Shown here: positions 7,037 to 60,198 of the stretch, piece by piece
Position numbering within the stretch: position 1 is the first letter of the stretch
How the letters are laid out: each line of letters starts with the position of its first letter
Notes under the pieces: model-generated
Databases searched by the model: none
What the model was told of the DNA's origin: nothing
Seen by the model: the letters and a program-made list of their open reading frames with translations, nothing else
Virus record (IMG/VR): IMGVR_UViG_3300042935_001404
Reading direction: 5' to 3' (one strand)
DNA length: 64,000 nt
Source: a virus
Lineage: Duplodnaviria > Caudoviricetes
Translations under genes and position numbers: made by a program

Positions 7037-8427
7037 GTACATGGAACGAATTTTACAATCAGATACGTGATCCGTTGTGGCCCGATTGTGAAAATGAATA
7101 CGAGTTTAAATCTCTTCCAGAAAACATACAAAAAGAGTGCATTGAAATTTTTGGATATGCGCCAGGCTCTTTTAAAAATAAATCTAAATTACTTAATAAG
7201 AAATTTCCTATTGTAACTGATACCGCATGTCAACTTAAATGGACGTGGAGTACTATATTTCTATCCACTGGCAAAACTGCCAGTTGTCACAGAACAAACC
7301 ATCATAAATTTAACACAGATACGTTTGAATTTCACAATACACCGAGCAAATTAGATGATCGTACTAACATGCTCAACGGGGAATGGCCCAACATTGGATG
7401 TGACTATTGTAAAAACATCGAAAAAGCAGGCGGACAAAGTGATAGGATTACCAACTTGGATTTTCCTGGGATTCATGCGCCACCAGAATTAGACCAAGAC
7501 CCAACAGCAATTCATGTCACTCCGAGAATACTTGAAGTTTATTTTGATAATACATGCAATTTAAAATGTCTTTATTGTGGCCCACATTTCAGTAGCTTGT
7601 GGGATGCAGAAAATATTAAATTTGGAGATGCTGCATTTCTTAAAGATGCAAACTTGGAACACAACAAGAAAAAGTTATTTGAATGGTTAAAAATCAACGG
7701 TCACAATCTTTCAGTATTTAATATACTAGGCGGTGAACCACTTTATCAAGAAGAATTAGAACAATGCTTGACATTATTTGAACAACATCCATCGCCTGAA
7801 TTAAAAATACAAATTTTTACCAATTTAAATATTAAACTGTCACGTTTGCAAAAAATTATTGATCGCATTAAACAATTAATTGATAATAACTGTATTAGAG
7901 AATTTGAAATTACTGCCAGTCTTGACTGCTGGGGACCGCAACAAGAGTATGTTAGGTATCCGTTAGATCTTCAGGAATGGGAAAAAAACTTTGAATACTT
8001 ACTAAGTAACTCCTGGATAAATTTAATTGTAAGTTCCACTGTTACTCCTCTAACTATTAAAACACTTCCAGATTTATTGATAAAAATTGCCCAATGGAAT
8101 AAAGTCAGAACAGTATATCATTATCAAAATTCAGTCAACGACCCAGGCTATATGTTTATTGATATATTTGGAGATATATTTAAAGATGATTTTGATCAAA
8201 TAATTAAATTAAAACCAGCAAACACACCGGAAGAAATATCTAGTAGAGATTACCTAATAGGCATAGCAAAACAAAGTCAGTCGGTTGCTCCTGACGTTTT
8301 TAAAATTGGTCAATTGTTTAATTTTTTAAATAAAATGGATCTACGAAGAAATACCAGTTGGAAGTTTACATTTCCTTGGTTAATTGATGAATTTAAAAAA
8401 TATGACCTACACACAGAAAGCAATTGA
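7033..8427 (+). CDS. radical SAM protein with N-terminal SPASM/Twitch-like domain
   Basis: CNLKCLYC, LGGEP; CQLKW..SCHR..CDYC. Confidence 0.9.
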   Translation: MSTWNEFYNQIRDPLWPDCENEYEFKSLPENIQKECIEIFGYAPGSFKNKSKLLNKKFPIVTDTACQLKWTWSTIFLSTGKTASCHRTNHHKFNTDTFEFHNTPSKLDDRTNMLNGEWPNIGCDYCKNIEKAGGQSDRITNLDFPGIHAPPELDQDPTAIHVTPRILEVYFDNTCNLKCLYCGPHFSSLWDAENIKFGDAAFLKDANLEHNKKKLFEWLKINGHNLSVFNILGGEPLYQEELEQCLTLFEQHPSPELKIQIFTNLNIKLSRLQKIIDRIKQLIDNNCIREFEITASLDCWGPQQEYVRYPLDLQEWEKNFEYLLSNSWINLIVSSTVTPLTIKTLPDLLIKIAQWNKVRTVYHYQNSVNDPGYMFIDIFGDIFKDDFDQIIKLKPANTPEEISSRDYLIGIAKQSQSVAPDVFKIGQLFNFLNKMDLRRNTSWKFTFPWLIDEFKKYDLHTESN

Positions 8428-9009
8428 ATGAAGGGACTAGCATTAGGATGTAGTCACACTGCAGGAGTAGGAGTATCGGCAACAGAATGTTATGTTTCTT
8501 TGTTGTCGACGCATTATAACTGCGAGATTATTAATACTGCTGTGCCAGGCGGAAATGCAGAAAACTGTTTAAAACACCTAGTAGCACAGTTACGTGCAAG
8601 AACTCCAGATTTTGTAATAGCACAATGGCCAAATCCCATTAGACGAACACTTTGGATTAATAACAAACCTCAGTGTGAAACTATACAAAGTTCTAGTACT
8701 ACGTTTCATTTGTTGTTAAAGTCAGGAATTGACAATTTTATTCAGCCTTGGTTGCAGTGTATTATTACTGCAGATACTTTATGTAAGTTTGCCAGAATTA
8801 AAATTGTGCATATTATGCTAGAAGATTTAGATTCTAAATATGTTGATGTTCTACATAACAATGATATAACATTACATAGAGATTTAAAAAAACCTGGGCA
8901 AACATGGTTATTTGATTCAGCCGGGTCAGACAACCTACATCACTCACCACGTTGTCACGCCCAATGGGCAGAACGATTAATTGGACTATTAAATGAACAT
9001 ACCACATGA
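8428..9009 (+). CDS. SGNH/GDSL-hydrolase-like protein
   Basis: LGCSHTAG, NTAVPGGN, DNLHHSP. Confidence 0.55.
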   Translation: MKGLALGCSHTAGVGVSATECYVSLLSTHYNCEIINTAVPGGNAENCLKHLVAQLRARTPDFVIAQWPNPIRRTLWINNKPQCETIQSSSTTFHLLLKSGIDNFIQPWLQCIITADTLCKFARIKIVHIMLEDLDSKYVDVLHNNDITLHRDLKKPGQTWLFDSAGSDNLHHSPRCHAQWAERLIGLLNEHTT

Positions 9010-10213
9010 CACTTTTTGCGTGTTGCCTTGGATCTCACTGGAGGCCAGTCCTGTTGGGACTGTACGTCCTTGCTGTCTGGCCATGGACGAAATCACTGAC
9101 AGCAACGGAGACAAATATAAACTAGCAACAACTGGATTGGGCGAAATACAAAATAGCCGAGCAATGAAAACTCTGCGAGAAGACTTTCTTGCTGGTAAAA
9201 AACCGCAGAACTGCCGTCGTTGCTGGAATGAAGAACGTGCCGGTCGTACCAGCAAACGTATGCACACACTGGACAGACTCAAGCACATGATCGATCGTGA
9301 TGTTGATTGGACCCAGGATGCAATGCCATTGATGTTCCTGGATCTTAAACTAGGCAACATTTGTAATTTAAAATGTCGTATTTGCGGCTCGTGGAGTAGT
9401 AGTCAGTTTGCCGCAGAAGAAATCAAATACAATCGTGCTGAAGATACTCGTGGTAGCTTTGCGTATCAGATGCTTCGAGACGGCGCCTGGCCCAGAGAAA
9501 GTGTAGAGTTTTGGACGGACCTGGACCAACACTTGGACAACATACGCTACATTGAGTTCACCGGTGGCGAGCCTTTTATGATTCAAGAGCATTTTCAACT
9601 GCTACAAAAATTAGTAGACACTGGCCGTGCAGCACAAGTTGAAATACACTACAACACCAATGGTACACAGTATCCAGAAGAAGGCGAAGCCATCTGGAAA
9701 CACTTCAAGAATGTTGAAATTGCCATCAGCATCGACGATGTAGCAGAACGGTTTGAATACCAGCGTACCAATGCTGTGTGGTACGAAGTGGTTGAGAATG
9801 TAGAGCGTTTTCGCCAACTACGCAGTCGTAACAGTAACATCACATTACAGGCCTGTTGCACTATCAACGTGTTCAATGTGTACTATCTTGAAACTGTGGC
9901 CAATTGGTTAATACAACAGGGATTTGATTTTATCTACTGGAACATGATGCACGATGCCTATTACTTTAGTATTAGTACATTGCCAGAATCAGCCAAAGCA
10001 GAAATCACTACAAAACTAACCTCTGCAACTGTTCCGCCTAAGATACTTAAAGAGTTTGTCAGTGCGGCCGAGTTTATGAATCGTGGCAACAGTCTAGATG
10101 GACATTTGTTACGTATGAATCTACGTGACCTTGACCATAAGAGAAAGCAAAACTTAGCACAAGTGGCACCAGAGTTTGCGGCATTGATCGACTATGACTA
10201 CAACAAAACCTGA
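8993..10213 (+). CDS. radical SAM protein with N-terminal SPASM/Twitch-like domain
   Basis: CNLKCRIC, TGGEP; CVLPW..PCC..CRRC. Confidence 0.9.
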   Translation: MNIPHDTFCVLPWISLEASPVGTVRPCCLAMDEITDSNGDKYKLATTGLGEIQNSRAMKTLREDFLAGKKPQNCRRCWNEERAGRTSKRMHTLDRLKHMIDRDVDWTQDAMPLMFLDLKLGNICNLKCRICGSWSSSQFAAEEIKYNRAEDTRGSFAYQMLRDGAWPRESVEFWTDLDQHLDNIRYIEFTGGEPFMIQEHFQLLQKLVDTGRAAQVEIHYNTNGTQYPEEGEAIWKHFKNVEIAISIDDVAERFEYQRTNAVWYEVVENVERFRQLRSRNSNITLQACCTINVFNVYYLETVANWLIQQGFDFIYWNMMHDAYYFSISTLPESAKAEITTKLTSATVPPKILKEFVSAAEFMNRGNSLDGHLLRMNLRDLDHKRKQNLAQVAPEFAALIDYDYNKT

Positions 10214-11492
10214 CATACTGTGCATGGCGCCATGGACACACACGTATCTAAGTCCACAAACAGAACGGCGTATGTGTTGTGCGTCGAGAGAACCTGCGCA
10301 GAGTTTTGAACAGTACATCGACACCGGTGCTGGAACAGGACGTTACACTCCTATTACTTTGGATCAACACTGGAACGGTGAGCACATGCGATCAGTGCGA
10401 CGTCGCATGATGTCTGGCGAAACATTGCCCGAATGCGATGTATGCAATAGCAAATTGCTAAACACCGACGTTTATCGTAGTTATTTTTGGCATTTGTTCC
10501 GACACAAGTATGACGATGTTGTTGCTTCAACAGATGACACCGGGTATACCACAATGAAACCTGTAAGCTGGGACTATCGTTTTAGTAATCTTTGTAACTT
10601 TAAATGCAGAACCTGTGGTGATATGCTATCCAGTGCCTGGGAAACAGAACAAAAAACACATGACATGATCAACTGGCACAATCCTAAAAACAATTGGATG
10701 CGATCAGATGTACGTCAAGAAATAACTAAGTTTCAGGATAAACAAATTGAGGCAGAATTTGCCGACGCAGTTGAACAACATCGTGTAGAAGAAGTATACT
10801 GGGTAGGCGGCGAACCATTGATGTATGAACAGCACTGGCGCTACATGAAAAGAATAGTAGAACTTGGAGATGGAGAAAGAGTATATGCTAGGTACAACAC
10901 CAATCTTAGTCGCATTGAGTATCGTGGCATTAATTTATATCGTGATATTTTATCTAATATACGCGACTGGCAGATTTGCGCTTCCTTGGACGGAACAGAA
11001 GATATCGGAGAATACATACGTACAGGTTTGGAGTATGTATCCTTTTTAAATAATTTTGAGCAAGGACTAGCTTATCAAAAGAACCGAAGACAAATGCGTC
11101 TAGACTTTACACTAACACTGCCCGGAATGTTTGAGATTATCAAAATGGAAAAGTTAGCGCAAAAGTATAATGTAGAGTTGCTGGCCAAAGTGATATTCAG
11201 TTTCGGTCCTGATATTGTTATGAGTCCATTATCATTGCCACGTGATTTACTAGAACCCTGGATTGACGAGTTATTGCCGCAATGTCACACACAAGTAATG
11301 CGAAACATGCTTGCTCAATTGCGCACTCGCCCTACGTTTGCTGAACAATGGCCAGATCAATATGCCGCAGGCATTGCAAAAGGCAAAGCTCGTGTGTTAA
11401 AATTAGAACAGATACGTACACAACCAGTCACAATGACAGACATACTGAGCACCCGGCCTGATGTATTAACGTGGTGGATGAATATACAATGA
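10194..11492 (+). CDS. radical SAM protein with N-terminal SPASM/Twitch-like domain
   Basis: CNFKCRTC, VGGEP; CMAPW..MCC..CDVC. Confidence 0.9.
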   Translation: MTTTKPDILCMAPWTHTYLSPQTERRMCCASREPAQSFEQYIDTGAGTGRYTPITLDQHWNGEHMRSVRRRMMSGETLPECDVCNSKLLNTDVYRSYFWHLFRHKYDDVVASTDDTGYTTMKPVSWDYRFSNLCNFKCRTCGDMLSSAWETEQKTHDMINWHNPKNNWMRSDVRQEITKFQDKQIEAEFADAVEQHRVEEVYWVGGEPLMYEQHWRYMKRIVELGDGERVYARYNTNLSRIEYRGINLYRDILSNIRDWQICASLDGTEDIGEYIRTGLEYVSFLNNFEQGLAYQKNRRQMRLDFTLTLPGMFEIIKMEKLAQKYNVELLAKVIFSFGPDIVMSPLSLPRDLLEPWIDELLPQCHTQVMRNMLAQLRTRPTFAEQWPDQYAAGIAKGKARVLKLEQIRTQPVTMTDILSTRPDVLTWWMNIQ

Positions 11493-12532
11493 TAGATCAA
11501 ATTGAAATTACTTTAAAAGGCAATGACAACAGCACTACGACAGTGTGGATTGATGTTGCAGATAACAGCTTGAGTCACAAATGGCTTGCCGCATTAAATA
11601 CCCTAATCCGTAACAATTATCATTTGGAAAAGAATTACTGTTTTTTTGGATTTGTGCAAAGTCAACGCAACGCAGAATACTTAACCGAACAAATGAACAG
11701 TAGTATTGCTGCCATTAATGCTGCCAACATTGGATATCATATTGACGATTATTTTTCAACTGCTAATACTATTGCGCCCGATGTAAAGTTAATACATGAT
11801 AAGTTAAACTATCTACATCGTTACTTTGAAGATTTGCAAGGTATATCGGGTGCAATGAGTCCTTTTTATACCAAAGCAGATCCCGTGACACGATGGCATA
11901 TAAGACAATTAAATTTGTTATGTCATGAATACGAAAGTCTTGTTCTCAGTATGCGCAAAGCACTTTATACACCTGAATGGCAACGACCTAGTCAACTCAT
12001 GTGTTGGTTACACGCACCGCGATTTGTGTTAGATGAACAAGATTATGAACTGTTTGGAGTTGAAACAATCAATAGGCCACTGGGTGGAGTTTTTGTAGGC
12101 GTAAATAAAGCTGTAGGCAAACACCATTGGGAAGTGTTCAATGATGAAGGACGAGACAGCCGTGTAGGAGAGTTAATAACTACAACGCTAAAACCACAAA
12201 CAGAAGCCGCCGGCGACTTTGACATTGAATGGGCCAACAATCCTGGCACATTTCCGTGGCAGCAAAAAACCTTGACAGATTTTAGAGTATGGTTAACAAA
12301 CAACGGGTTTGATCCAGAAGATAAAAGTCTAACCATTGGACATCCGCAGGTGGCACAGGTAGATTTAATCCGTAGTTTTGGAACAGATAACTATGTAGAT
12401 ATATGGAACACCTTAGGAAGTCATCTTAACGTGCATAAAATACGCACCAGTGATGCAACAGCTACATACAGTTATAATTGGACAGATGCAGATTATGCAG
12501 ATCAACAAATTAAAATAATACAAGGGACATGA
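11489..12532 (+). CDS. hypothetical protein
   Basis: long ORF overlapping upstream stop (ATGA). Confidence 0.75.
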   Translation: MIDQIEITLKGNDNSTTTVWIDVADNSLSHKWLAALNTLIRNNYHLEKNYCFFGFVQSQRNAEYLTEQMNSSIAAINAANIGYHIDDYFSTANTIAPDVKLIHDKLNYLHRYFEDLQGISGAMSPFYTKADPVTRWHIRQLNLLCHEYESLVLSMRKALYTPEWQRPSQLMCWLHAPRFVLDEQDYELFGVETINRPLGGVFVGVNKAVGKHHWEVFNDEGRDSRVGELITTTLKPQTEAAGDFDIEWANNPGTFPWQQKTLTDFRVWLTNNGFDPEDKSLTIGHPQVAQVDLIRSFGTDNYVDIWNTLGSHLNVHKIRTSDATATYSYNWTDADYADQQIKIIQGT

Positions 12533-12533
12533 T

Positions 12534-12635
12534 ATGAACTGGATTAAAAATTTATACAATCGTATTCGTTTAGAAATACGCTATCGTAAAAAACTAAAAG
12601 AACTACGTAAACGAGATCCTTTTATCTACAAATGA
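12534..12635 (+). CDS. 33-aa basic small protein MNWIKNLYNRIRLEIRYRKKLKELRKRDPFIYK
   Basis: fills gap exactly; stop overlaps next ATG (ATGA); translated by hand. Confidence 0.65.
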   Translation: MNWIKNLYNRIRLEIRYRKKLKELRKRDPFIYK

Positions 12636-14143
12636 AGTTGAAAACATATTTGGGTGTCAGTGCCGGGTTTCACGATGCCGCTGTGAGTGTAATTCAGTCT
12701 GACGGCAGTGTACTTTTTGCCGGGCATGCAGAACGCTACAGCAAAAACAAAAACGATGCACATCTAAATGATTCGATCATTGCAGAAGCAATGTCATACG
12801 CAACTCCGGATGTGATTGCATACTATGAACGTCCGTGGGTCAAAAAACTACAACAACTATATTCGGGACAATATGAGGAAGCCTTTGATTTTGGGAATTT
12901 TACTTTGGATCAGTATTTGCATAAACATCTATCTGATACTGTTCATCGGCAGCAACTACTACGATGCCCTAGAAAATATATGTCCCATCATCATAGTCAC
13001 GCCGCCGCAGGATTCCAATCCAGCCCCTATAACAGGGCCACAGTGGTTGTAATTGATGCCATTGGTGAATTAGACACCGTAACTATCTGGGGAGCAGAAT
13101 ATGATCGATCAGGCATGGCAACGTATAAAAAACTTTGGACACAGCGTTACCCACATTCAATTGGATTGTTCTACTCTGCGGCTACTGGCAGCGTTGGCCT
13201 ACGCCCACTAGACGAAGAATATATCTTGATGGGTATGGCCGCATATGGCAATGCTAGTCACGCTGTTAAAATGCAAGCATTGGTAGAAGATGTAGACACC
13301 ATACGCTTTTGTGAAAATCTACACACAGGAATAGACAGTCAATACCTGCAAGATTTAACTGAGTTTGATATTGCCGCAGGTGCACAAGCCATTGCGGAAC
13401 AATTGATCAACAGCGTGATGCGCAGAGCCAGAGACTTTGGCTGGAGCAACAACTTGGTCTACATGGGCGGTGTTGCTCTCAACTGTAGTGCTAACCGCAA
13501 CCTAGGAGAATACTTTGATAATATTTGGATTATGCCTTGTCCTGGTGACGCTGGCAGTAGTTTGGGCGCGGCAGCACTTGCATACGGAAAACAGATACAT
13601 TGGAAAAACGCCTATTTGGGTTGTGTTATTCCGGGTGCTTATCCTGTTGCTGATATTGTATCTTGCTTACTAAGCGATAAAATTGTTGGTGTTGCTAGTG
13701 GTCGTGCTGAGTTTGGCCCTAGGGCTCTCGGCAATAGGAGTTTATTAGCAGACCCGCGTGGTGCAGACATAAAGGATCGTGTAAATGATATTAAAAGACG
13801 ACAGCAATTCAGACCATTTGCGCCGGTTATTTTGGAGGAGCATGTTGATATGTATTTTGATATGCCTCATGGCTTCCATAACAGTAGGTATATGCAAGTC
13901 ATCGCTCGCTGTAGGCATCCTCACATATTTCCTGCTATCGTTCATAGGGACGGCACTAGTAGGGTACAGACTGTTCCTAAGGATGGCTCCGGAATAAGAC
14001 AACTGCTAGAAGAATGGTACAAGGCAACAGGTTGTCCTATGTTGCTTAACACAAGTCTTAACATACGTGGCGAACCCATGGTAAATGATCGTGCAGACGC
14101 AGATAGATTTGAACAATTATACGGAGTAAAAGTCTGCTCATGA
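12632..14143 (+). CDS. carbamoyltransferase (NodU/CmcH family)
   Basis: HDAA, HHHSHAA, GGVALNC, GDAG, EFGPRALGNRS, RPFAP, LLNTSLN. Confidence 0.92.
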   Translation: MKLKTYLGVSAGFHDAAVSVIQSDGSVLFAGHAERYSKNKNDAHLNDSIIAEAMSYATPDVIAYYERPWVKKLQQLYSGQYEEAFDFGNFTLDQYLHKHLSDTVHRQQLLRCPRKYMSHHHSHAAAGFQSSPYNRATVVVIDAIGELDTVTIWGAEYDRSGMATYKKLWTQRYPHSIGLFYSAATGSVGLRPLDEEYILMGMAAYGNASHAVKMQALVEDVDTIRFCENLHTGIDSQYLQDLTEFDIAAGAQAIAEQLINSVMRRARDFGWSNNLVYMGGVALNCSANRNLGEYFDNIWIMPCPGDAGSSLGAAALAYGKQIHWKNAYLGCVIPGAYPVADIVSCLLSDKIVGVASGRAEFGPRALGNRSLLADPRGADIKDRVNDIKRRQQFRPFAPVILEEHVDMYFDMPHGFHNSRYMQVIARCRHPHIFPAIVHRDGTSRVQTVPKDGSGIRQLLEEWYKATGCPMLLNTSLNIRGEPMVNDRADADRFEQLYGVKVCS

Positions 14144-15405
14144 CTGATAAACAAGTATTTCCAATCAAAACAGACACAGGATGCTTGCTCAAGTGGGCCT
14201 GGAGCACTGTGTACTTAAATCAAGGCACAAGTGCTAGTTGTCACCGTACAGACCAACAACCCATACCTCCAGACAACTTTGAAAGTTTTCATAATCTGCC
14301 AAACAAAATAGAAGCCAGGCAAATGATGTTGCGTGGCGAATGGCCACAGGGTGGTTGTCAGTACTGCGAAAAGATTGAAACAGCTGGCGGCATGAGCGAC
14401 AGACAATATCAATTACATGCTCGTCATGACCTGGATCGTACTCCGCACGAGTTGTTTAAAGATCCAACTACGTTGGAAGTTGTACCTACCATATTAGAAG
14501 TATATTTCAACAATGTATGCAACATGGCCTGCTTGTATTGCGGCAGTCACTTTAGTACAAAATGGGAAGAAGAGAACCGACGATTTGGTGTGTTTACACA
14601 AGGCAATGTAAACTTTGGGCACAACACACAATCTAATCCCAACTATGAGCGCATGCTGGCAGACTTTTGGCGCTACCTGGAAGAGAAAGATCGTTACAAA
14701 CACATACGCTACTATCAAATACTGGGTGGCGAGCCTTTCTTCCAGGATGAGTTTGACATCAGCATGGACTTCTGGGAAAGTCATCCCAATCCAGAACTTA
14801 CATTTAACATTATTACCAACCTAAAGGTACCACCTAAAAAGTTCCAAGCCTACATTGATCGCTTTGGCAAGATGGTTGAGTCTGGCGCACTAAAACGATT
14901 GCAAATCACAGGTAGTATAGATGCCTGGGGACCACAAGAAGAATATGTGCGGTGGGGATTAGACTTGGCCGAGTGGACAGAAAACTGGGAATATCTACTA
15001 GACAAAGACTGGGTTGTGATGTGCGTGAACAGTGCAGTGTCGGCATTGACAATTAAAACAGCACCTGAGCTAGTGGAAAAGATAAACGAGTGGAACGATC
15101 GTCGCAATCCGTGGAATCCTATTAGCTACAGTTTCATGAGTGTGATGACCCCGCCTGAAATGGTTCCAGACATATTTGGACCAGGCGTGTTTGAACAGGA
15201 CTTTGCACGTTTACTGGCCGCAATGCGAGAACGCAATCCCAGCGAAGTCAGTGCTAAAGAACACATGCGTGGCATTATGAAACAGATTGTAGCAGGACCT
15301 CGCAACGCAGAACGTATTGCTGATTTGAAAGTTTATCTGACTGAAATAGATCGACGTCGTGTCACTGATTGGAAACTGTTGTTTCCGTGGCTGATAGAAC
15401 TATAA
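14140..15405 (+). CDS. radical SAM protein with N-terminal SPASM/Twitch-like domain
   Basis: CNMACLYC, LGGEP; CLLKW..SCHR..CQYC. Confidence 0.9.
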   Translation: MTDKQVFPIKTDTGCLLKWAWSTVYLNQGTSASCHRTDQQPIPPDNFESFHNLPNKIEARQMMLRGEWPQGGCQYCEKIETAGGMSDRQYQLHARHDLDRTPHELFKDPTTLEVVPTILEVYFNNVCNMACLYCGSHFSTKWEEENRRFGVFTQGNVNFGHNTQSNPNYERMLADFWRYLEEKDRYKHIRYYQILGGEPFFQDEFDISMDFWESHPNPELTFNIITNLKVPPKKFQAYIDRFGKMVESGALKRLQITGSIDAWGPQEEYVRWGLDLAEWTENWEYLLDKDWVVMCVNSAVSALTIKTAPELVEKINEWNDRRNPWNPISYSFMSVMTPPEMVPDIFGPGVFEQDFARLLAAMRERNPSEVSAKEHMRGIMKQIVAGPRNAERIADLKVYLTEIDRRRVTDWKLLFPWLIEL

Positions 15406-35904: not shown

Positions 35905-35922
35905 GTGTTTCTATTTATAGAC

Positions 35923-38619: not shown

Positions 38620-39645
38620 TCAGAAACTATGTGACAATCCAATGTAACTAGCTGTACCTATGTTTGCAGTATCGGCTGCACCAGCGGCAGTTACAGCTTG
38701 CTTGGTATCTGATAAAAACGCTTCAAGTTTAGTACGCTTGCTGAAAGAATACACTGCGCGAACGCCTGTAACACCCTTCTTAGTGTTGGCAGCACCATTG
38801 GCACCAATGTTTACATTGTTAGACAACTTAGACAAAGACACATCTAACTTGGCATTAACTGGAACTTTAATGCCGTACTCAGTTGACTTATGAGCTGCCA
38901 TAGAAGTCAAATTGTCTTTTTGATTCATTTGGTTAACTGCAACTTCTGCAAATCCAAAATTGTAAGCGGCGTTGATAGTTTGCAACTTTTCAGCATTGAG
39001 ACCAGTGATATTAGCAACTTGAGCTTTTAATCCTCCTGCTGAATAGTTAACACCAATGACGTTCACATCATTCATCAACGTTGCTGTGGTTGTAGTGGCA
39101 AAACCATTGCCAGGGACCACTACATATTTGTTATGTCTGCCCTTGGCGTTTAATAAAAATACCTCTGCACCAGCAATCTTAGGCGAAGTGTATTGCACTT
39201 GTGCAGAATTGCGACCATAATTCAAGCCAGAATGGGTACCTTTAGACCAGTCTTGCATATAATGGCCGGCACCGTTTGTGCTGACCAACTGAGTAGAGAA
39301 ACGACCTAATTTAACATTGCCGAACTTGCTATCCACAAAAATATTAGACTGTTCCCACAATTGAGTGTTGGCGTCACCAGTTGATGAATTAGCATATGAC
39401 CCTTGTGCACCAGTTTCGGAACTAAAACGATTTTGTAAAAAAATACCAACTTTGGTACCACCGCCTAAGTCTTCAGCGGCACTAAAGTTTAAATAATTAC
39501 GGTCACCTTTGGCAGCGCCAACGGTAGTAACTCCGGCAGCAGACCTTGCTACACCATATTGAACCTGACCAGAAATTGTCACGGTTGATTGTGCAAGGAC
39601 AGCAGTAGATACAGTCAATGCTAAGATTGCGAAGATTTTCTTCAT
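38620..39645 (-). CDS. Gram-negative outer-membrane porin
   Basis: signal peptide; VTISG..YG, EDLGGG, YxFSKRT, C-terminal GLSHSF. Confidence 0.92.
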   Translation of the reverse strand: MKKIFAILALTVSTAVLAQSTVTISGQVQYGVARSAAGVTTVGAAKGDRNYLNFSAAEDLGGGTKVGIFLQNRFSSETGAQGSYANSSTGDANTQLWEQSNIFVDSKFGNVKLGRFSTQLVSTNGAGHYMQDWSKGTHSGLNYGRNSAQVQYTSPKIAGAEVFLLNAKGRHNKYVVVPGNGFATTTTATLMNDVNVIGVNYSAGGLKAQVANITGLNAEKLQTINAAYNFGFAEVAVNQMNQKDNLTSMAAHKSTEYGIKVPVNAKLDVSLSKLSNNVNIGANGAANTKKGVTGVRAVYSFSKRTKLEAFLSDTKQAVTAAGAADTANIGTASYIGLSHSF

Positions 39646-39778: not shown

Positions 39779-41098
39779 TTATTGAGATCTTAACCACTGA
39801 ATTAGTCGTCGATGTAAATTATAAAGTTTTTTACTAGATCCTGGATCTTGTTTTAATATTTTTTTTCGTATCGCTCTTCGAAATATGCCACGTGGTTTTT
39901 TGACGAGTCGAAATGCATCTATAAAATTTGTTTTTAATTCTTCAATTACCTGTTGTTGAAATGCATCGCTAAAAAAATGTTTTTTGTTAAAATCCGCTAT
40001 GCGTCTAATTTCTAGTAAAAATTGATCAAACTCCGGTGCGCCAAGAGAATTAATTTTATTCAGGCTGTTGATAATTTTTTCAAGTCTTAACAAACTATTT
40101 GTCTCTTGATCATAACTTTCGTCAATCCAAGGAGCAAATGTTCGAAATCCGTAACTTCTTAGATATTCTAAACTATGCGGGCCTGCTGCCAACACAAATG
40201 GATGTCCGCAGGCAATTGGTCTCAGTATCTTTTCTGTCAAGTGAATTCTTGAGTCGTCAAATATAGTTTCCAAAACTACACTTATTGCAGTTGAATTAAA
40301 ATCATCATGATTGTACTGTGCGCTTTCGTTGCTGTCACTGTGATTGTCTTCAAACAGATCTAGTACAGTGCTGTCTTTGAGCGCAAAATTAATATTTTTA
40401 AATTTGTGGTCCCGGTAATGATACCCTTGATCGCCTTCGGACCGTCTTGATATACTGATTTTACTTTGTTCATGCAATCCATGTTTGACCAACAACTCTA
40501 TAAACTTTAATCTGTATTCTCTAGTGTTGCCCCAGGCACGATTGTATATTAGGAATTTTTTACAAACTTGAGATTGCGTTGTTAGCCGAGTATCTATCTC
40601 GGCAAATCTATACCAGTCACGAGCAATAATTGCATGGCACCAATAATAAACTGGTAAAAAATTATTTTGAGAATACTGTTCTAAGTCAACAGAATTTTTT
40701 TCAGAATGCAGTAAAATTGCCTGTTCATAAAGAGATCCACACAACAATGGTATTGACAATAAATTTTTATCAACCGCCGCTTGACTACTTATTTTGGCCA
40801 CAGTGGGTTCGTTTAATGCAATGTGTAATGACACAGGATCAATATTTGTATAAAAATTATAATGCAATGGCTCTTGGTCGTGTGCAACAACTGGAATGTT
40901 AATAAAATATGTTAGGCCGTCAACACCATTGGCGCCAAGAGCAGTCAATGCATCAAGATCAGTTAATGTATCAATATCAGTCAATGGTCTGAGGTCAGAA
41001 ATATCTTTACTACCGTGAGGATAAAATCTGTAAAATGCTGTCGGAACAGGTATAATCGATTGCACCCAGTGGTACAAATTGTCTAAGGGAATGTTCAT
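39779..41098 (-). CDS. putative glycosyltransferase-like protein (ET..TEK family)
   Basis: VVLETIF..LTEKILRPI..GHPF..GFRTF..DESYD. Confidence 0.45.
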   Translation of the reverse strand: MNIPLDNLYHWVQSIIPVPTAFYRFYPHGSKDISDLRPLTDIDTLTDLDALTALGANGVDGLTYFINIPVVAHDQEPLHYNFYTNIDPVSLHIALNEPTVAKISSQAAVDKNLLSIPLLCGSLYEQAILLHSEKNSVDLEQYSQNNFLPVYYWCHAIIARDWYRFAEIDTRLTTQSQVCKKFLIYNRAWGNTREYRLKFIELLVKHGLHEQSKISISRRSEGDQGYHYRDHKFKNINFALKDSTVLDLFEDNHSDSNESAQYNHDDFNSTAISVVLETIFDDSRIHLTEKILRPIACGHPFVLAAGPHSLEYLRSYGFRTFAPWIDESYDQETNSLLRLEKIINSLNKINSLGAPEFDQFLLEIRRIADFNKKHFFSDAFQQQVIEELKTNFIDAFRLVKKPRGIFRRAIRKKILKQDPGSSKKLYNLHRRLIQWLRSQ

Positions 41099-41121
41099 GC
41101 CATTGGATTTTGTCTTTGAAT

Positions 41122-41435
41122 AAAAGGTAATTTAATTCTGTTACGAGGATAAATTACCAAAAACCCTAGGCAGTGTTTAGACTGCCAATGCTTCCTTGGC
41201 TGTACGAGCAGAGAACTTGACGTTCTTACCAGAAACAGTTACGGTTTTGTTTACGTTTGCATTTACGTTTTTTGCTTGATTAACGGTCATCGCCTACCGT
41301 GCTGTCCACTTGTTTACTTGTTGCCCTGTCGAATCTAGTGCTCCCCCACCTAAATATACTGAATACATTTAGGTGGAGGAGGGGGGATTCGCACCCCCGT
41401 CCAAGACACTTTTCTCTTTGCTTCATACAGCAATA
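41122..41435 (-). ncRNA. ssrA: circularly permuted (two-piece) tmRNA
   Basis: acceptor piece ..GGACGGGGGTGCGAATCCCCC CTCCTCC A (ends ~41374) precedes coding piece GGGGGAG CACTAGATTCGAC (starts 41347); 7-bp acceptor stem with G3:U70; tag ORF 41260-41177. Confidence 0.9.
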
Positions 41436-41440
41436 ACTCT

Positions 41441-41448
41441 TATTTATA
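41441..41448 (-). promoter_or_regulatory. T4-like late promoter TATAAATA upstream of tmRNA
   Basis: exact octamer; also seen at 28204-28211, 35912-35919, 51055-51062 (-) and 44887-44894 (+). Confidence 0.55.
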
Positions 41449-41450
41449 AT

Positions 41451-41525
41451 TGGTTGCGGGGGAAGGACTCGAACCTCCGGCTTCCAGGTTATGAGCCTGG
41501 CGGTCTACCACTGACGTACCCCGCG
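41451..41525 (-). tRNA. tRNA-fMet(CAT), initiator type
   Basis: C1:A72 mismatch, CCAGG-CTCATAA-CCTGG, CCA. Confidence 0.88.
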
Positions 41526-41531
41526 ATAAAT

Positions 41532-41621
41532 TGGCGGAAGCGGTGAGATTCGAACTCACGAGGGACGTTGATCCCTGCTGGGTTAGTAATCCAGTGCCAT
41601 CGGCCACTCGGCCACGCTTCC
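41532..41621 (-). tRNA. tRNA-Ser(ACT), rare A34 anticodon
   Basis: long variable arm, G73, loop TT-ACT-AA, CCA. Confidence 0.85.
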
Positions 41622-41894: not shown

Positions 41895-42395
41895 CTAGAA
41901 TTTTTCATTAACTTTAGCACGATAACTAGCAGTTGATAACCCTTTAAATCGATCTGCCGCATAACTGGCAGCAAATGCATTGGGTTTAACTGATGGCGTC
42001 ACATTACATGTTCCTTTAATGTAGCCAACAGCCTGTGATATCACACAGCTCGACCCGTATTTATCGTCAGGATTGATATCTAAGTGCACCTCAACATGAC
42101 GATTTTCCAACACTTCGCCCAATTTCAAATACAGTTCAGATACTTTGTAAACTTCATTCATCAGGCGCATGCTTGGACGCGATGTTTTTTGATCAAAGTC
42201 CCGTTCGCGGTGTACTTCTCCAAACAGTTTGCAACCGTTGTTGCCGTTGATATGCACCACAATGGCCACCACGTAGTCAGCATACCAAACACCGTTTACA
42301 CGATGACGTTCTGAGTCACACCCAAGATAAATCTTAGTCTCAGGAGTTTGTTCTTCAATGAACCTTTTTACTTTAACAAGATTTATCTTTTCCAT
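41895..42395 (-). CDS. RNase H-like YkuK/DUF458 family protein
   Basis: IYLGCDSE, RLMNEVYK, EVHLDIN, FAASYAADR. Confidence 0.8.
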   Translation of the reverse strand: MEKINLVKVKRFIEEQTPETKIYLGCDSERHRVNGVWYADYVVAIVVHINGNNGCKLFGEVHRERDFDQKTSRPSMRLMNEVYKVSELYLKLGEVLENRHVEVHLDINPDDKYGSSCVISQAVGYIKGTCNVTPSVKPNAFAASYAADRFKGLSTASYRAKVNEKF

Positions 42396-42503: not shown

Positions 42504-43439
42504 TTATTGACCGAGTTTTGTTGCAAATGATTCAAACATATGGTCCATGGTTTTGATATTTTGCAAATCTAATTTGTAGTCACCAGACTTGCTGACCAGA
42601 TGTTTTTGAACCAAGTCAGGCATGGCCAGTTTGATTGCTTGATTCAGATCCTTGACAACTTGATCTCGCACTTCTCGGGGAGTGTCTTTTCTTATAAAGA
42701 AACTGTATCCTGCCACTAAGTTTTGGTAATCAGAGAATCCGGGACTTGTTAAATTAGGCAAATCTGGAAAGTCAGTTGACTTTTTGTTGTCAAACACAAA
42801 CAGCGGTGTTAGTGTTCCGGCAGTGATGTGTTGATTAACATTGCCGTAGCTGATAACAGCAAAGTCAAGTTGATTGTTTAAAATATCTACAATCACCTGA
42901 GGTATACTTTTGTAGTTGACCAAAATTCCGTTGACTTTCATCTTGTCTATGGCTAATGATCCGTAAATGTGAAGAGGACTTCCTGTTATAGTGCTACCAT
43001 ATGTTAGTCCTTTTTGTTTGCCTAGTTCTGCCAGATCATTGAGATTCTTGATGTTTCTTTTGCTGTTGGTAACCAATACCCATTGTGGAGAATAGAAATG
43101 TGATACCGGTTCGAAATGCCGTTCGTAATCAAATCCTGTTGACGGTTTTGCACTGGCATAGGCAGTTGATGCGTAGAACAAAATTGTATGGCCATCGGCC
43201 GGGGCCGACAAGACATGTTGAGACGCTATGGCAGCGGCCCCACCTGGTTTGTTCATTACCACGACACCGGATTTCCAGATCCCGTCTAGTTTTTCTGCCA
43301 CAGTTCTTGTGATAAGATCAAGTCCACCGCCTGCTCCTGTGGGAACAATTAGTTGTACAGGTTTCTCAGGAAACGCTGATACAGAGACACTAACACTCAT
43401 AACAAGTGCGGTTAATAATGTTGATACAATTTTCTTCAC
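42504..43439 (-). CDS. Bug/TctC tripartite tricarboxylate transporter substrate-binding protein
   Basis: signal peptide; FPEKPVQLIVP..GGG.D..R, NKPGG.., ADGHT, YK. Confidence 0.9.
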   Translation of the reverse strand: MKKIVSTLLTALVMSVSVSVSAFPEKPVQLIVPTGAGGGLDLITRTVAEKLDGIWKSGVVVMNKPGGAAAIASQHVLSAPADGHTILFYASTAYASAKPSTGFDYERHFEPVSHFYSPQWVLVTNSKRNIKNLNDLAELGKQKGLTYGSTITGSPLHIYGSLAIDKMKVNGILVNYKSIPQVIVDILNNQLDFAVISYGNVNQHITAGTLTPLFVFDNKKSTDFPDLPNLTSPGFSDYQNLVAGYSFFIRKDTPREVRDQVVKDLNQAIKLAMPDLVQKHLVSKSGDYKLDLQNIKTMDHMFESFATKLGQ

Positions 43440-58232: not shown

Positions 58233-59333
58233 TTAGAATAAATCCACAGTTTCCCAAGGCAAATAGTTTTTGCCAAAGTGTCCGTAGTTGGTTGTGCTAC
58301 TGTAGATAGGACGGAAGAGATCAAATCGTTCAATAATGCCTAGAGGTGTTAGATCAACGTTGTCTTGCACCCACTTGGTCAATTCACGACTTTGTGGTTT
58401 GTGGTCTGTTTCGACGTAAAAGCTCATGGGCTGTGCCATGCCAATAGCATAACTGATCTGTACAGTTGCCCAATCTGCTCGACCACTGGCCACAATGTTC
58501 TTGGCAATCCAACGTGTCAAGTAGGCAGCACTTCGATCAACCTTAGTGGGATCTTTTCCTGAGAAAGCCCCGCCACCATGAGGACTATACCCGCCGTATG
58601 TATCCACAATAATCTTGCGACCAGTAAGCCCAGTGTCACCATCAGGACCACCAACGACAAATCTACCAGTGGGGTTAATATAAAATTCGGTTTGATTATC
58701 AACATAATTTTTAGGAAGAATATTACGGATAATTGATTCTACTTTGTTGCGGAGTAACGCTGTTTCAATATCATCGCTATGTTGCGTAGAACAAACAACT
58801 TTAGCAACACGTTTGGGTGTGCCAGCATCATTGTACTCAAATGTCACTTGGCTCTTGGCATCTGGGCCTAGCCATTCAATGCCCAGTTCCTTGCGTTGTC
58901 GTGCAAGTTCTTCCACAATACGATGGCTCCAATAAATGGCACTGGGCATGTGTGTATCGGTTTCGTTACAAGCATATCCAAACATCAGTCCTTGATCGCC
59001 TGCACCGAATGTATCTGTGCCCAGTGCAATGTCTGCACTTTGACCATGTAACAAATTGGTGATCTCAACAGTGCGCCAATCAAACCCAGACTGTTCATAC
59101 CCAACGTCTTTGATAACTCTGCGTACTGCTGATTCAACTTCTTCGGCATGTAAGATGCCTTTGTATTCGCCAGCAACCACAACACGATTGGTAGTCACTA
59201 GTGTTTCACAAGCACAGCGTAGTGCAGGATTTTCCTTGGACATTACCAAGTCCAGAACAGCATCGCTAATAGCATCTGCAATTTTATCCGGATGTCCTTC
59301 GGATACACTTTCACTTGTAAATAGATAACTCAT
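58233..59333 (-). CDS. metK: S-adenosylmethionine synthetase
   Basis: FTSESVSEGHPDK, GAGDQG, GGGAFSGKDPTKVDRS. Confidence 0.97.
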   Translation of the reverse strand: MSYLFTSESVSEGHPDKIADAISDAVLDLVMSKENPALRCACETLVTTNRVVVAGEYKGILHAEEVESAVRRVIKDVGYEQSGFDWRTVEITNLLHGQSADIALGTDTFGAGDQGLMFGYACNETDTHMPSAIYWSHRIVEELARQRKELGIEWLGPDAKSQVTFEYNDAGTPKRVAKVVCSTQHSDDIETALLRNKVESIIRNILPKNYVDNQTEFYINPTGRFVVGGPDGDTGLTGRKIIVDTYGGYSPHGGGAFSGKDPTKVDRSAAYLTRWIAKNIVASGRADWATVQISYAIGMAQPMSFYVETDHKPQSRELTKWVQDNVDLTPLGIIERFDLFRPIYSSTTNYGHFGKNYLPWETVDLF

Positions 59334-59343
59334 TAATTTCCTT

Positions 59344-60198
59344 TTATTTTCCCCATCCGTTACCCCACAGATCAACGTGCAATCTTGGAGTATAGTAGTA
59401 TCCACGCACAAGTGCCCAGTCTGCAACATTCACACGGTTCTCTGCATATGGAGCAACAACACCACCTTGTGGCATAACATATACCACGCCTTCAAATCCT
59501 GCGGCACGATAAGCGGCCACAGCACGATCTACTTCTTCAAAGTGTACTTCGCTGTCAATCACAAACTTAAGATACACAGTACCAAAGTTTTGATAGTCTG
59601 CCACAATCTCGGGTTTAATTGCCTCTGCCCATGCTTCTCCGCTGGCACTGAGTTTGGGACTTACAGAGAATGTAAGTTCATTGTGTCCTGCCAGCCATGT
59701 GTTAAGATATTCTCTAAACTTGGGCTGTAACTTTTGAGTACCATTGGTCTCAAATGTAACATTCTTAATGCCACGCATATCGTCATGATCAAACAAGTCT
59801 TGATATGTACGTTGCCATCCCAGCAATGGCTCACCGCCTGTGATCACAAGATGTGTGTCATTGCCTGTGCGATTGGTCCAACGACGGTCAGGAATCAAGT
59901 CTAGCATTTTGTTTACTAGTTCATCAATCTCATATGTAGGGCTAAGTTCTTTGAAGTCTGGATGCCAACTTGCATAACTGTCGCAACCGGTGTTCACAAG
60001 CGGCAGTTCTTCAAATGTTTTATACAAGTGTACACTCTTGGCAACTTCATCTGCTTCTGTGCTTTTCTCCCCAGGCCGGCACCCGAAACCTGCACAGGTA
60101 AAGTTACAGCCAAATGTGCGTAAAAACACACTGGGTACACCAATAAAGCGACCTTCGCCTTGTGCCGAATAGAATAGTTCTGATACTTTTAATTTCAT
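59344..60198 (-). CDS. queE: 7-carboxy-7-deazaguanine synthase (radical SAM), insertion-containing variant
   Basis: SELFYSAQGEG..PSVFLRTFGCNFTC..GCDS, ITGGEP, FETNGT, SPK, PRLHVDLWG. Confidence 0.88.
   Translation of the reverse strand: MKLKVSELFYSAQGEGRFIGVPSVFLRTFGCNFTCAGFGCRPGEKSTEADEVAKSVHLYKTFEELPLVNTGCDSYASWHPDFKELSPTYEIDELVNKMLDLIPDRRWTNRTGNDTHLVITGGEPLLGWQRTYQDLFDHDDMRGIKNVTFETNGTQKLQPKFREYLNTWLAGHNELTFSVSPKLSASGEAWAEAIKPEIVADYQNFGTVYLKFVIDSEVHFEEVDRAVAAYRAAGFEGVVYVMPQGGVVAPYAENRVNVADWALVRGYYYTPRLHVDLWGNGWGK

What the first reader, a model, noticed from the sequence alone, without database searches (positions are those of the whole stretch)
41122..41448. Phage-encoded circularly permuted (two-piece) tmRNA
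Seen: on the minus strand the tRNA-like 3' half (GGGGG-TGCGAAT-CCCCC, then CTCCTCC-A) lies upstream of the 5' half (GGGGGAG-CACTAGATTCGAC, starting 41347). The two form a 7-bp acceptor stem with the alanine G3:U70 determinant. The intervening segment is a hairpin, CCACCTAAAT..ATTTAGGTGG, and the 3' end reads CCT, so CCA must be completed after processing. A tag ORF follows, with its stop in the loop of a GGCAGT/ACTGCC hairpin. A TATAAATA late motif sits just upstream. Established: two-piece tmRNA is known in alphaproteobacteria, some cyanobacteria and a betaproteobacterial lineage. Inference: the phage carries its own permuted trans-translation RNA, expressed late and using host SmpB.
Basis: partly seen in the sequence, partly recalled or inferred. 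Interest (0 to 1): 0.9.

Follow-up and report, generated by a model that had tools for sequence, protein, structure and literature searches.

The report
Two-piece tmRNA gene in lake phage
This large freshwater phage carries a genuine back-to-front ("two-piece") copy of tmRNA, the bacterial ribosome-rescue RNA; such phage genes are already known, so it is a sound but fairly ordinary find whose one unusual trait is a long, altered peptide tag.

Summary
ARAGORN calls a permuted tmRNA at 41086-41463(-). Rfam tmRNA_permuted scores 129.9 bits (cut-off 47) and beta_tmRNA 96.5 (cut-off 84).

Six IMG/VR relatives, one a complete 346,856-bp T4-like genome, keep the gene at the same place. RNAalifold on a 10-sequence alignment (4 phage-context, 6 bacterial) recovers the fold; 17 of 42 pairs show compensatory change.

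That complete relative has no SmpB or PF01743 CCA-adding enzyme but does have a gp55-type late sigma factor, so host factors are needed and the late-promoter reading is plausible, not shown.

The kind is already known. Buchholz et al. 2022 counted 53 two-piece tmRNAs in phage isolates, and this scan has met phage two-piece tmRNAs many times on other DNA.

Particular here:
- It is the betaproteobacterial type, in a freshwater jumbo-phage clade.
- The 27-residue tag ends ALAV; sister lake-phage contigs have 10-12-residue ...LAA tags.
- The T-loop is UGCGAAU, always paired with a D-loop AG.
- The tRNA-like module has been exchanged between relatives.

Verdict: new member of a known kind; interest about 0.3.

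The parts
41441..41448 (-). TATAAATA box, a T4-type late-promoter-like motif. It predicts a transcript start near 41435, 3 nt before the first tmRNA helix.
   Evidence: Read. The ATAAATAAG core is invariant in 7 genomes, even where a cassette separates the tmRNA from tRNA-Met. The motif is mostly intergenic. The complete relative has a gp55-type sigma factor. The start position follows from the known T4 late-promoter geometry and is an inference.
41372..41435 (-). Acceptor piece. It holds the 5' strands of helix P2 (UGCUG 41432-41428; UGU-C-UUG 41408-41402), the T arm (41398-41382), the acceptor 3' strand (41381-41375), A73 and CC. The terminal A is not encoded.
   Evidence: Rfam alignment. 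RNAalifold pairs with compensatory changes. Motif extraction.
41348..41371 (-). Intervening segment that is removed on maturation. It is a hairpin, UAAAUGUAU / AUAUAUUUA.
   Evidence: It is homologous to the 24-nt spacer hairpin of the Dechloromonas/Azonexus genes, with compensatory changes.
41119..41347 (-). Coding piece. In order: acceptor 5' strand GGGGGAG (41347-41341), D-loop analogue CACUAGAUUCGA (41340-41329), P2 3' strands (41328-41322 and 41304-41300), hairpin CGGU/ACCG (41299-41284), the tag frame, the P5 hairpin and the terminal hairpin.
41177..41260 (-). Tag reading frame of 27 codons plus TAA: ANVNKTVTVSGKNVKFSARTAKEALAV.
   Evidence: ARAGORN. The TAAATGC resume context is invariant in phage and bacterial genes. 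Among relatives there are 4 synonymous third-position and 3 conservative first-position changes, and none at second positions.
41169..41186 (-). P5 hairpin GGCAGU-CUAAAC-ACUGCC, with the stop codon in its loop.
   Evidence: The same hairpin occurs in the canonical-tag relatives as GGCAG/CUGCC.
41119..41158 (-). Terminal hairpin GGUAAUUUA / UAAAUUACC followed by UUUUAUU, the likely intrinsic terminator. Its loop CCUCGUAACAGAA is conserved.
   Evidence: Fold. Several relatives keep the loop, and one of them (L052) has a different stem, GGUUGGUU/AACCAACC.

Best explanation
This is a functional ssrA gene of the circularly permuted, betaproteobacterial (two-piece) type. It is carried in the tRNA block of a freshwater T4-related jumbo phage.

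Proposed mechanism (the gene identity and fold are shown; the steps below are inferred):
1. A precursor of about 315 nt is made. It comes either from the gene's own TATAAATA-type promoter, read by the phage's gp55-like sigma factor, or by read-through from the tRNA-Ser/tRNA-Met unit.
2. Host RNase P cuts 5' of G41347.
3. Host 3' nucleases trim the 24-nt hairpin spacer back to ...ACC.
4. The host CCA-adding enzyme supplies the missing A.
5. The two pieces stay joined through helix P2 and the acceptor stem.
6. Host AlaRS charges the RNA through G3:U70 and A73, and host SmpB delivers it to stalled ribosomes.
7. Translation resumes at GCA (41260) and adds a 27-residue tag ending ALAV.

The benefit to the phage is presumably more ribosome-rescue capacity while it translates heavily with its own 24 tRNAs.
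For: Detection:
- ARAGORN calls a permuted tmRNA.
- RF04321 scores 129.9 bits against a cut-off of 47, and RF01850 scores 96.5 against 84. Both matches are full-length.

Conservation and structure:
- The gene sits at the same place in six IMG/VR relatives, scoring 96-122 bits.
- RNAalifold, run without the Rfam model, recovers P2, the T arm, the acceptor stem, the spacer hairpin and the P3 hairpin. Of 42 pairs, 17 show compensatory change, and G3:U70 is invariant.
- Three different acceptor stems occur among close relatives and all pair perfectly.
- Tag substitutions are synonymous or conservative.

Phage context and dependence on the host:
- The complete relative G002 (346,856 bp, terminal repeats) has a gp23 capsid gene and a gp55-type sigma factor.
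- G002 has no SmpB and no PF01743 nucleotidyltransferase.
- Phage-context sequences form one clade (support 99/98), apart from the bacterial beta-type genes sampled.

Transcription:
- Low-depth metatranscriptome contigs cover parts of the gene and none of the flanking ORF. This is weak evidence.
Against: - There is no direct evidence of transcription timing, processing, charging or tagging. The RNA-run contigs gave no end positions and could include DNA.
- The beta_tmRNA score (96.5) is far below that of true bacterial genes (286-336).
- The T-loop reads UGCGAAU. G stands at the position of the near-universal U55, which could impair the tRNA elbow or its modification.
- The tag ends in Val, not Ala.
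- The window's own genome could not be searched for SmpB.
Confidence: 0.85

Rival explanations
1. It is a decoy or competitor. The phage RNA binds host SmpB, AlaRS or ribosomes chiefly to divert or dampen host trans-translation, or to swap the host's strong degradation tag for a weaker one, rather than to add rescue capacity.
For: - A tRNA-like-domain-only tmRNA occurs in mycobacteriophage DS6A. A similar molecule (a tmRNA tRNA-like domain alone) has been shown to inhibit tmRNA strongly, perhaps by titrating SmpB (PMC4131195; read).
- The elbow here is altered: T-loop G at position 55 together with D-loop AG.
- The tag's last residue is Val. Sister phage contigs keep ...LAA.
Against: - The full message domain is kept: the invariant resume context, an open 27-codon frame under coding-type constraint, and the stop in the P5 loop.
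- A pure decoy would not need these features.
- Sister phages keep canonical degradation tags.
Confidence: 0.08
2. It is a passenger or relic: a captured host ssrA copy, or the remnant of an integration site, with no role in infection.
For: tmRNA genes are common integration sites, and fragments of them occur in prophages (PMC9004378; read).
Against: - The gene is complete, not a fragment.
- It is kept at one locus in at least 7 related genomes, with compensatory changes in every helix.
- No bacterial gene closer than 74-77% identity was found.
- The complete relative has direct terminal repeats and T4-like replication and late-transcription genes.
- No integrase was noticed in the tRNA block, though not every ORF was scanned.
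Confidence: 0.03
3. It is expressed with the tRNAs, early or middle in infection, from sigma-70-type promoters, rather than late. On this view the TATAAATA box is incidental or secondary.
For: - A 10-of-12 sigma-70-like site with an extended -10 lies at 41757-41729, upstream of tRNA-Ser.
- Two relatives have TTGACT-17-TAAAAT/TATAAT sites in the same position.
- In phage Melnitz the two-piece tmRNA follows an early promoter (PMC9004378).
Against: - The window's sigma-70-like site is not conserved in its closest relatives, L003 and L006.
- The ATAAATAAG box stays attached to the tmRNA when a 412-577-nt cassette separates it from tRNA-Met.
- The box is placed so that a late transcript would start at the first helix.
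Confidence: 0.3

Closest known systems
Betaproteobacterial two-piece tmRNA (Rfam RF01850; Dechloromonas/Azonexus and Alcaligenaceae genes seen here as L012-L032)
   Same: - Same gene order: acceptor piece, short hairpin spacer, coding piece.
- P2 helices, T arm, and a 7-bp acceptor stem with G3:U70 and A73.
- A genomic ACCT end with a 23-24-nt spacer hairpin.
- The CGNN-AGGCGA-NNCG hairpin and the invariant UAAAUGC resume context.
   Different: - Only 72-77% identical.
- beta_tmRNA score is 96.5 bits against 286-336 for the Azonexaceae-type genes and 147-169 for the Alcaligenaceae-type ones.
- It is AT-rich.
- The 3' terminal part is different.
- The T-loop is UGCGAAU with a D-loop AG, not UUCGA with GG.
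- The tag is 27 residues ending ALAV; the six bacterial genes whose tag region was read are all short (about 10 codons) and end in Ala-Ala.
Phage-borne two-piece tmRNAs of aquatic phages (OM43 phage Melnitz, pelagimyophages, cyanophages; Buchholz et al. 2022, PMC9004378)
   Same: - A permuted ssrA in aquatic phages (Melnitz itself is a myophage with T4-like replication and transcription genes).
- It is found by ARAGORN.
- It is thought to act with host factors.
   Different: - Those named marine examples are of the alphaproteobacterial or cyanobacterial type; the paper says phages share all three lineages.
- Melnitz has a glutamine riboswitch and an early promoter.
- This gene is beta-type, from lake water, in a jumbo genome of about 350 kb, behind a late-type box.
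- No word 'lake' or 'freshwater', and no ALAV tag, occurs in that paper's supplementary files, which include its phage table.
Unnamed lake-metagenome phage contigs with the same tmRNA backbone (L044-L058)
   Same: - The PK/resume region is identical over at least 43 nt.
- Most share the same T-loop UGCGAAU and D-loop AG.
- Most lie beside tRNA genes; the one locus scanned (L046) has T4-like neighbours: gp59, PhoH, CobS.
- They fall in the same clade in the tree.
   Different: - They carry canonical 10-12-residue tags: ANDEQFALAA, ANDSAYRLAA, ANDSVYSLAA, ANDNSYEYALAA.
- Most have long spacers (78-284 nt) and an encoded CCA.
One-piece tmRNAs of mycobacteriophages (Bxz1 group) and Bacillus phage G (PMC4131195)
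   Same: - A phage-encoded ssrA in a tRNA-rich large phage.
   Different: - Those genes have the standard, unpermuted order.

Membership tests
tmRNA, circularly permuted (two-piece) form | Covariance-model match above the curated cut-off over the whole model. | tested here: met
   RF04321 scores 129.9 bits (cut-off 47), positions 1-213 of 213. RF01850 scores 96.5 bits (cut-off 84), positions 1-331 of 331. ARAGORN calls tmRNA*.
tmRNA, circularly permuted (two-piece) form | A tRNA-Ala-like acceptor stem with G3:U70 and discriminator A73. | tested here: met
   GGGGGAG pairs with CUCCUCC, followed by A. G3:U70 is invariant in all 35 phage and bacterial sequences extracted.
tmRNA, circularly permuted (two-piece) form | Permuted order: the T arm and acceptor 3' strand lie upstream of the acceptor 5' strand, separated by a removable spacer. 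| tested here: met
   The 3' half is at 41398-41372, the spacer at 41371-41348, and the 5' half starts at 41347.
tmRNA, circularly permuted (two-piece) form | A canonical T arm and T-loop (GUUCGA-type) with D-loop GG. | tested here: inconclusive
   The 5-bp T stem is intact, but the loop is UGCGAAU and the D-loop has AG. The two changes always occur together: 17 of 17 sequences, against UUCGA with GG in 18 of 18. That suggests a compensated elbow, but probably from a single evolutionary event.
tmRNA, circularly permuted (two-piece) form | A tag frame that starts at an Ala resume codon behind a conserved upstream context and ends in a hydrophobic C-terminus, with the stop in a hairpin. | tested here: met
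   UAAAU-GCA is invariant. The frame has 27 codons and ends ALAV. The stop lies in the P5 loop. The substitution pattern is of the coding type.
tmRNA, circularly permuted (two-piece) form | Helices supported by covariation. | tested here: met
   17 of 42 RNAalifold pairs show changes on both sides.
tmRNA, circularly permuted (two-piece) form | Maturation into two base-paired RNAs with a CCA end, alanylation, and SmpB-dependent tagging. | not testable with these tools
   Only assembled contigs of metatranscriptomes were available, and they gave no read ends.
T4-type late promoter | A TATAAATA box at about -10, with no -35 element, in a phage that encodes a gp55-type sigma factor. | tested here: inconclusive
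   - The box is present and conserved.
- The motif is concentrated in intergenic DNA.
- gp55 homologue in the complete relative: phrog_12791 at 246.7 bits, and T4 gp55 at E 3e-6.
- No gp45 clamp match was found with the T4 protein.
- The capsid gene of the relative showed no box directly upstream.
- Timing was not measured.

The most novel reading that the evidence does not exclude
In this jumbo-phage clade the tmRNA has been re-tooled rather than merely borrowed.

- About 17 extra codons, Lys-rich, and a single C-to-T change (Ala to Val at the last residue) turned a canonical ...ALAA degradation tag into a 27-residue ...ALAV tag.
- On this reading the new tag changes the fate of tagged proteins during infection. 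They might be degraded more slowly, handled by a different protease or adaptor, or marked in a way that sets phage-rescued products apart from host-rescued ones.
- The A18/G55 elbow variant would give the phage RNA its own handling by host factors.
Probability: 0.15. Interest if true: 0.6.

Novelty: new member of a known kind. Interest (0 to 1): 0.3.

Why it matters
It adds a well-documented case to the evidence that large aquatic phages bring their own ribosome-rescue RNA. It extends that evidence to the betaproteobacterial gene type and to freshwater jumbo phages.

The set of sequences gathered here is a natural experiment:
- They share nearly identical backbones.
- Their tags are either canonical (...LAA) or long (...ALAV).
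- They carry three interchangeable acceptor stems.
- They show a paired T-loop/D-loop variant.

This set could be used to ask what a phage gains from trans-translation and how tag sequence affects the fate of tagged proteins. By itself the gene does not change what is known.

Tried and rejected
- **RNA runs, 5-kb query:** none was listed.
- **RNA runs, gene-sized query:** the search found only metatranscriptome contigs holding 11-17% of the words. Laid on the window, they gave no molecule ends and no proof of transcription. The very deep contigs (word depth up to about 6500) match only 41254-41310 and then run on into canonical tags, so they belong to other tmRNAs.
- **Bacterial donor, pattern scans:** an exact 46-mer scan of 185,579 species genomes found nothing. 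A looser pattern found only Azonexaceae/Alcaligenaceae-type genes at 72-77% identity.
- **Bacterial donor, sampled genomes:** a BLAST of 401 genomes sampled from the same order found nothing closer than 74%. No donor or host can be named.
- **Prior listing of the tag:** neither the tag nor its relatives appear in the held supplements of the tmRNA database paper or of Buchholz et al.. This is not proof that the tag is unlisted.
- **Late-promoter box at the capsid gene:** a check upstream of the relative's major capsid gene was uninformative. There is no box directly upstream; one lies before the next gene.
- **T4 gp45 clamp:** the protein found no match in the relative. This is uninformative.
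- **Origin of the extra tag codons:** a six-frame search of the window with the tag gave only non-significant hits. The best, at E 0.39, lies in the nearby porin gene.
- **Downstream ORF (39779-41098, 439 aa):** no PHROG, Pfam or phage tblastn match, so no functional link to the tmRNA can be proposed.
- **Sharkady and Williams 2004 (PMC516066):** the paper is not held. Statements about the beta lineage rest on the sequences fetched here and on citing papers.
- **Pseudoknot upstream of the resume codon:** I tried by eye and could not settle one. Only the hairpin is supported.
- **The count of structure pairs:** I did not run it, to avoid typing a long structure string. The RNAalifold pair counts were used instead.

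Full report
**What is in the sequence**

Read on the minus strand, the region from 41448 to 41119 holds these elements, in order:
- a TATAAATA box (41448-41441), which starts two bases after the encoded CCA end of tRNA-Met (41451);
- the 5' strands of a long helix (UGCUG 41432-41428; UGU-C-UUG 41408-41402);
- a T arm (GGGGG-UGCGAAU-CCCCC, 41398-41382);
- the acceptor 3' strand CUCCUCC (41381-41375), then A, CC and a U (41371);
- a hairpin spacer that runs to 41348;
- the acceptor 5' strand GGGGGAG (41347-41341);
- a D-loop analogue, CACUAGAUUCGA;
- the 3' strands of the long helix;
- a small hairpin (CGGU/ACCG, 41299-41284);
- the context UAAAU followed by a frame from GCA (41260) to TAA (41179-41177);
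- a hairpin with the stop codon in its loop (41186-41169);
- a final hairpin followed by UUUUAUU (41158-41119).

The two acceptor strands give seven pairs, with G3:U70 and discriminator A73.

**Is it more than chance?**

- ARAGORN calls a permuted tmRNA with the tag ANVNKTVTVSGKNVKFSARTAKEALAV.
- Rfam tmRNA_permuted matches end to end at 129.9 bits (cut-off 47, E 3.9e-25).
- The betaproteobacterial model matches end to end at 96.5 bits (cut-off 84). Two lower-scoring overlapping matches to other families of the same clan were dropped; the output does not name them.

**What carries it**

- The gene lies in a block of 24 tRNA genes, all on the same strand.
- The window's own assembly is not held.
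- The tag-coding sequence retrieved six IMG/VR contigs.
- All six keep a permuted tmRNA after the same tRNA-Ser(ACU)/tRNA-Met pair, scoring 96-122 bits.
- One contig is a complete genome of 346,856 bp with direct terminal repeats. It has a T4-type major capsid gene (325 bits) and a gp55-family late sigma factor (phrog_12791 at 246.7 bits; T4 gp55 at E 3e-6).
- Eighteen lake-water DNA metagenomes hold 67-94% of the gene's words.
- The carrier is therefore a freshwater jumbo phage related to T4.
- The window also encodes a Porin_4 porin and a TctC/Bug-family receptor. From general knowledge, these families are typical of Burkholderiales, which agrees with the beta-type tmRNA. No host was identified.

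**Is the fold real?**

The relatives act as a natural mutagenesis series (alignment A2; extraction).
- Three acceptor stems occur: GGGGGAG/CUCCUCC in the window only, GGGGGUG/CACCUCC, and GGGCCUG/CAGGUCC. All pair perfectly and all keep G3:U70.
- The T stem is GGGGG/CCCCC or GCGGG/CCCGC.
- The inner P2 helices change from UUG/CAG and UGU/GCA to CAA/UUG and GAU/GUC.
- I aligned four phage-context and six bacterial genes with short spacers (A3). RNAalifold, run without the Rfam model, recovered P2, the T arm, the acceptor stem, the spacer hairpin and the small hairpin. Of 42 pairs, 17 keep pairing through changes on both sides.
- The spacer hairpin and the genomic ACCT end are shared with the Dechloromonas/Azonexus genes. 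The non-encoded terminal A is therefore inherited from the bacterial gene type, not a phage oddity.
- It does stand out locally: all 24 tRNA genes of the window encode CCA.

**Is the tag read?**

Among the six complete relatives, the 81 coding bases differ at seven distinct site-variants:
- four are third-position and synonymous;
- three are first-position and conservative (V to L or I; T to S);
- none is at a second position.

The sample is small, but this is the pattern expected of a translated frame.

**Dependence on host factors**

- Six-frame HMM searches of the complete relative found no SmpB and no PF01743 nucleotidyltransferase. Both searches rang in ten control genomes.
- The RNA would therefore need host SmpB, AlaRS, RNase P, 3' trimming enzymes and the host CCA-adding enzyme.
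- This was shown for a relative and is inferred for the window's genome.

**Promoter**

- TATAAATA is not over-represented in the window as a whole: 5 copies against 3.2 expected.
- Four of those five, and 7 of 10 ATAAATA sites, fall in the 12% of the window that is intergenic. The expected numbers are 0.6 and 1.2.
- The string ATAAATAAG-N-GUUAUUGCUG is invariant in all seven genomes.
- It stays with the tmRNA in three relatives where a cassette of 412-577 nt separates the tmRNA from tRNA-Met.
- With T4 late-promoter geometry (established knowledge), the start would fall near 41435, three bases before the first helix. The acceptor piece would then need no 5' processing.
- Together with the gp55 homologue, this makes a late-type promoter plausible.
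- It is not proven. A sigma-70-like site upstream of tRNA-Ser allows co-transcription with the tRNAs. The capsid-gene check was uninformative.

**Relation to known tmRNAs**

- Bacterial beta-type genes found by a pattern scan are 72-77% identical to the window's gene: Dechloromonas, Azonexus and Alcaligenaceae MAGs.
- Their beta_tmRNA scores are 286-336 bits for the Azonexaceae-type genes and 147-169 bits for the Alcaligenaceae-type ones.
- A sample of 401 genomes of the same order gave nothing closer.
- A scan of JGI metagenomes for the PK/resume region followed by GAC found 15 lake contigs.
- Most lie in tRNA arrays. One that I examined has T4-type neighbours: gp59 helicase loader, PhoH and CobS.
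- These contigs carry canonical tags: ANDEQFALAA, ANDSAYRLAA, ANDSVYSLAA and ANDNSYEYALAA.
- In a tree of the tRNA-like and PK regions, all 16 phage-context sequences form one clade (support 99/98), apart from the bacterial ones.
- The long-tag genes are not a single group within that clade.
- The window and contig L003 are 100% identical in the flanks and the tag, yet differ heavily in the tRNA-like domain. Both observations point to exchange of modules between co-circulating phages.

**What is particular here**

1. *The tag.* Its ends are homologous to the canonical phage tags: GCAAACG at the start and UUGGCAG-C/U-CUAAACACUGCC at the end. The middle is about 51 nt longer. The last codon is GUC (Val) where the sister contigs have GCC (Ala). 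That single change also adds one pair to the P5 hairpin. From memory of the literature, GFP tag variants ending AAV are still degraded but more slowly than LAA (Andersen et al. 1998). If that holds here, ALAV may be a weakened degradation signal. I did not test this.
2. *The elbow.* T-loop UGCGAAU (G where U55 normally stands) occurs in 17 of the 21 phage-context sequences extracted, always with AG in place of the D-loop GG. UUCGA with GG occurs in the other 18 sequences, which include all 14 bacterial ones. This looks like a compensated tertiary pair, but it is probably one event spread by recombination.

**Novelty**

- Phage-borne two-piece tmRNAs are in print. Buchholz et al. 2022 found 53 unique two-piece tmRNAs among phage isolates, 50 of them aquatic (PMC9004378).
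- The 2025 tmRNA database lists 79 bacteriophage sequences (PMC11915505).
- This scan has noted such genes many times on other DNA, and several follow-ups reached the same verdict.
- I found no description of this freshwater beta-type clade or of its long tag.
- It is therefore a new member of a known kind, with modest variant features.

**Verdict**

- The gene identity is essentially certain, and its function in trans-translation with host factors is likely (0.85).
- Late expression is plausible (about 0.5-0.6).
I put interest at about 0.3.

Noticed in passing
window 41387-41393 and 41335-41337; loci L004, L005, L007, L044-L058: T-loop UGCGAAU (G at the U55 position) always occurs with D-loop AG instead of GG: 17 of 17 sequences. 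UUCGA always occurs with GG: 18 of 18. The first form was seen only in phage-context sequences. It may be a compensated G18:U55 tertiary pair.
   Followed up: partly
window 41130-41450 compared with L003:6245-6600: The flanks and the tag region are 100% identical while the tRNA-like domain differs at about a quarter of its positions. The long-tag genes are also not one group in a tree of that domain. Relatives appear to have exchanged the tRNA-like module.
   Followed up: partly
L008:5728-6310; L005 and L007 between tRNA-Met and the tmRNA: Cassettes of 412-577 nt are inserted between tRNA-Met and the tmRNA. In L008 the cassette is bracketed by two copies of AATTATAAATAA. In L005 and L007 an inserted ORF ends inside the AATAAATA box. 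The promoter boxes look like junctions for cassette exchange.
   Followed up: no
L004, L005, L007, L044-L058 (spacer between the CCA end and G1): Relatives have spacers of 78-284 nt where the window has 23-24 nt. I did not examine whether they hold small ORFs or structured RNAs.
   Followed up: no
window 41135-41149; the same loop in L044, L047, L049-L054, L056: The loop CCUCGUAACAGAA of the 3' terminal hairpin is conserved in several relatives, and L052 keeps it with a different stem. It is partly complementary to the 5' leader UUGCUGUAUGA, which the Rfam model already pairs elsewhere. Its role is unexplained.
   Followed up: no
window 41532-41621: A tRNA-Ser with anticodon ACU, which is unusual (A34), lies next to the tmRNA. 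ARAGORN finds it at the same place in all six relatives.
   Followed up: partly
L053:2781-2859 (from a 225,080-bp lake contig): ARAGORN calls a tRNA with anticodon CUA, an amber-suppressor type that it labels Pyl, inside the tRNA array of a sister phage contig.
   Followed up: no
window 41254-41310, in runs X20-X22: Metatranscriptome contigs of very high word depth (up to about 6500) share up to 57 identical bases with the phage gene and then continue into canonical tags. Their owners (bacteria or other phages) are unknown. An exact 46-mer from this stretch is absent from 185,579 species genomes.
   Followed up: partly
window 38620-39645 and 42504-43439: The phage encodes a Porin_4 porin and a TctC/Bug-family periplasmic receptor. 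Both hint at a Burkholderiales host. The best, though non-significant (E 0.39), six-frame match of the tag peptide lies in the porin's C-terminal region.
   Followed up: partly
window 41895-42395: A DUF458/YkuK RNase H-like protein (PF04308, 65 bits) lies inside the tRNA block. Homologues occur in many tRNA-rich phages of Vibrio, Xanthomonas, Stenotrophomonas and roseobacters.
   Followed up: partly
window 1925-15405: A run of radical-SAM-like proteins plus a Nol-type carbamoyltransferase (phrog_1601, 309.7 bits), and a MetK S-adenosylmethionine synthetase at 58233-59429. Together they suggest a large tailoring island.
   Followed up: no
window 35912-35919: A second TATAAATA box ends 7 nt before the 5' end of tRNA-Thr. 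This is the same geometry as at the tmRNA.
   Followed up: no
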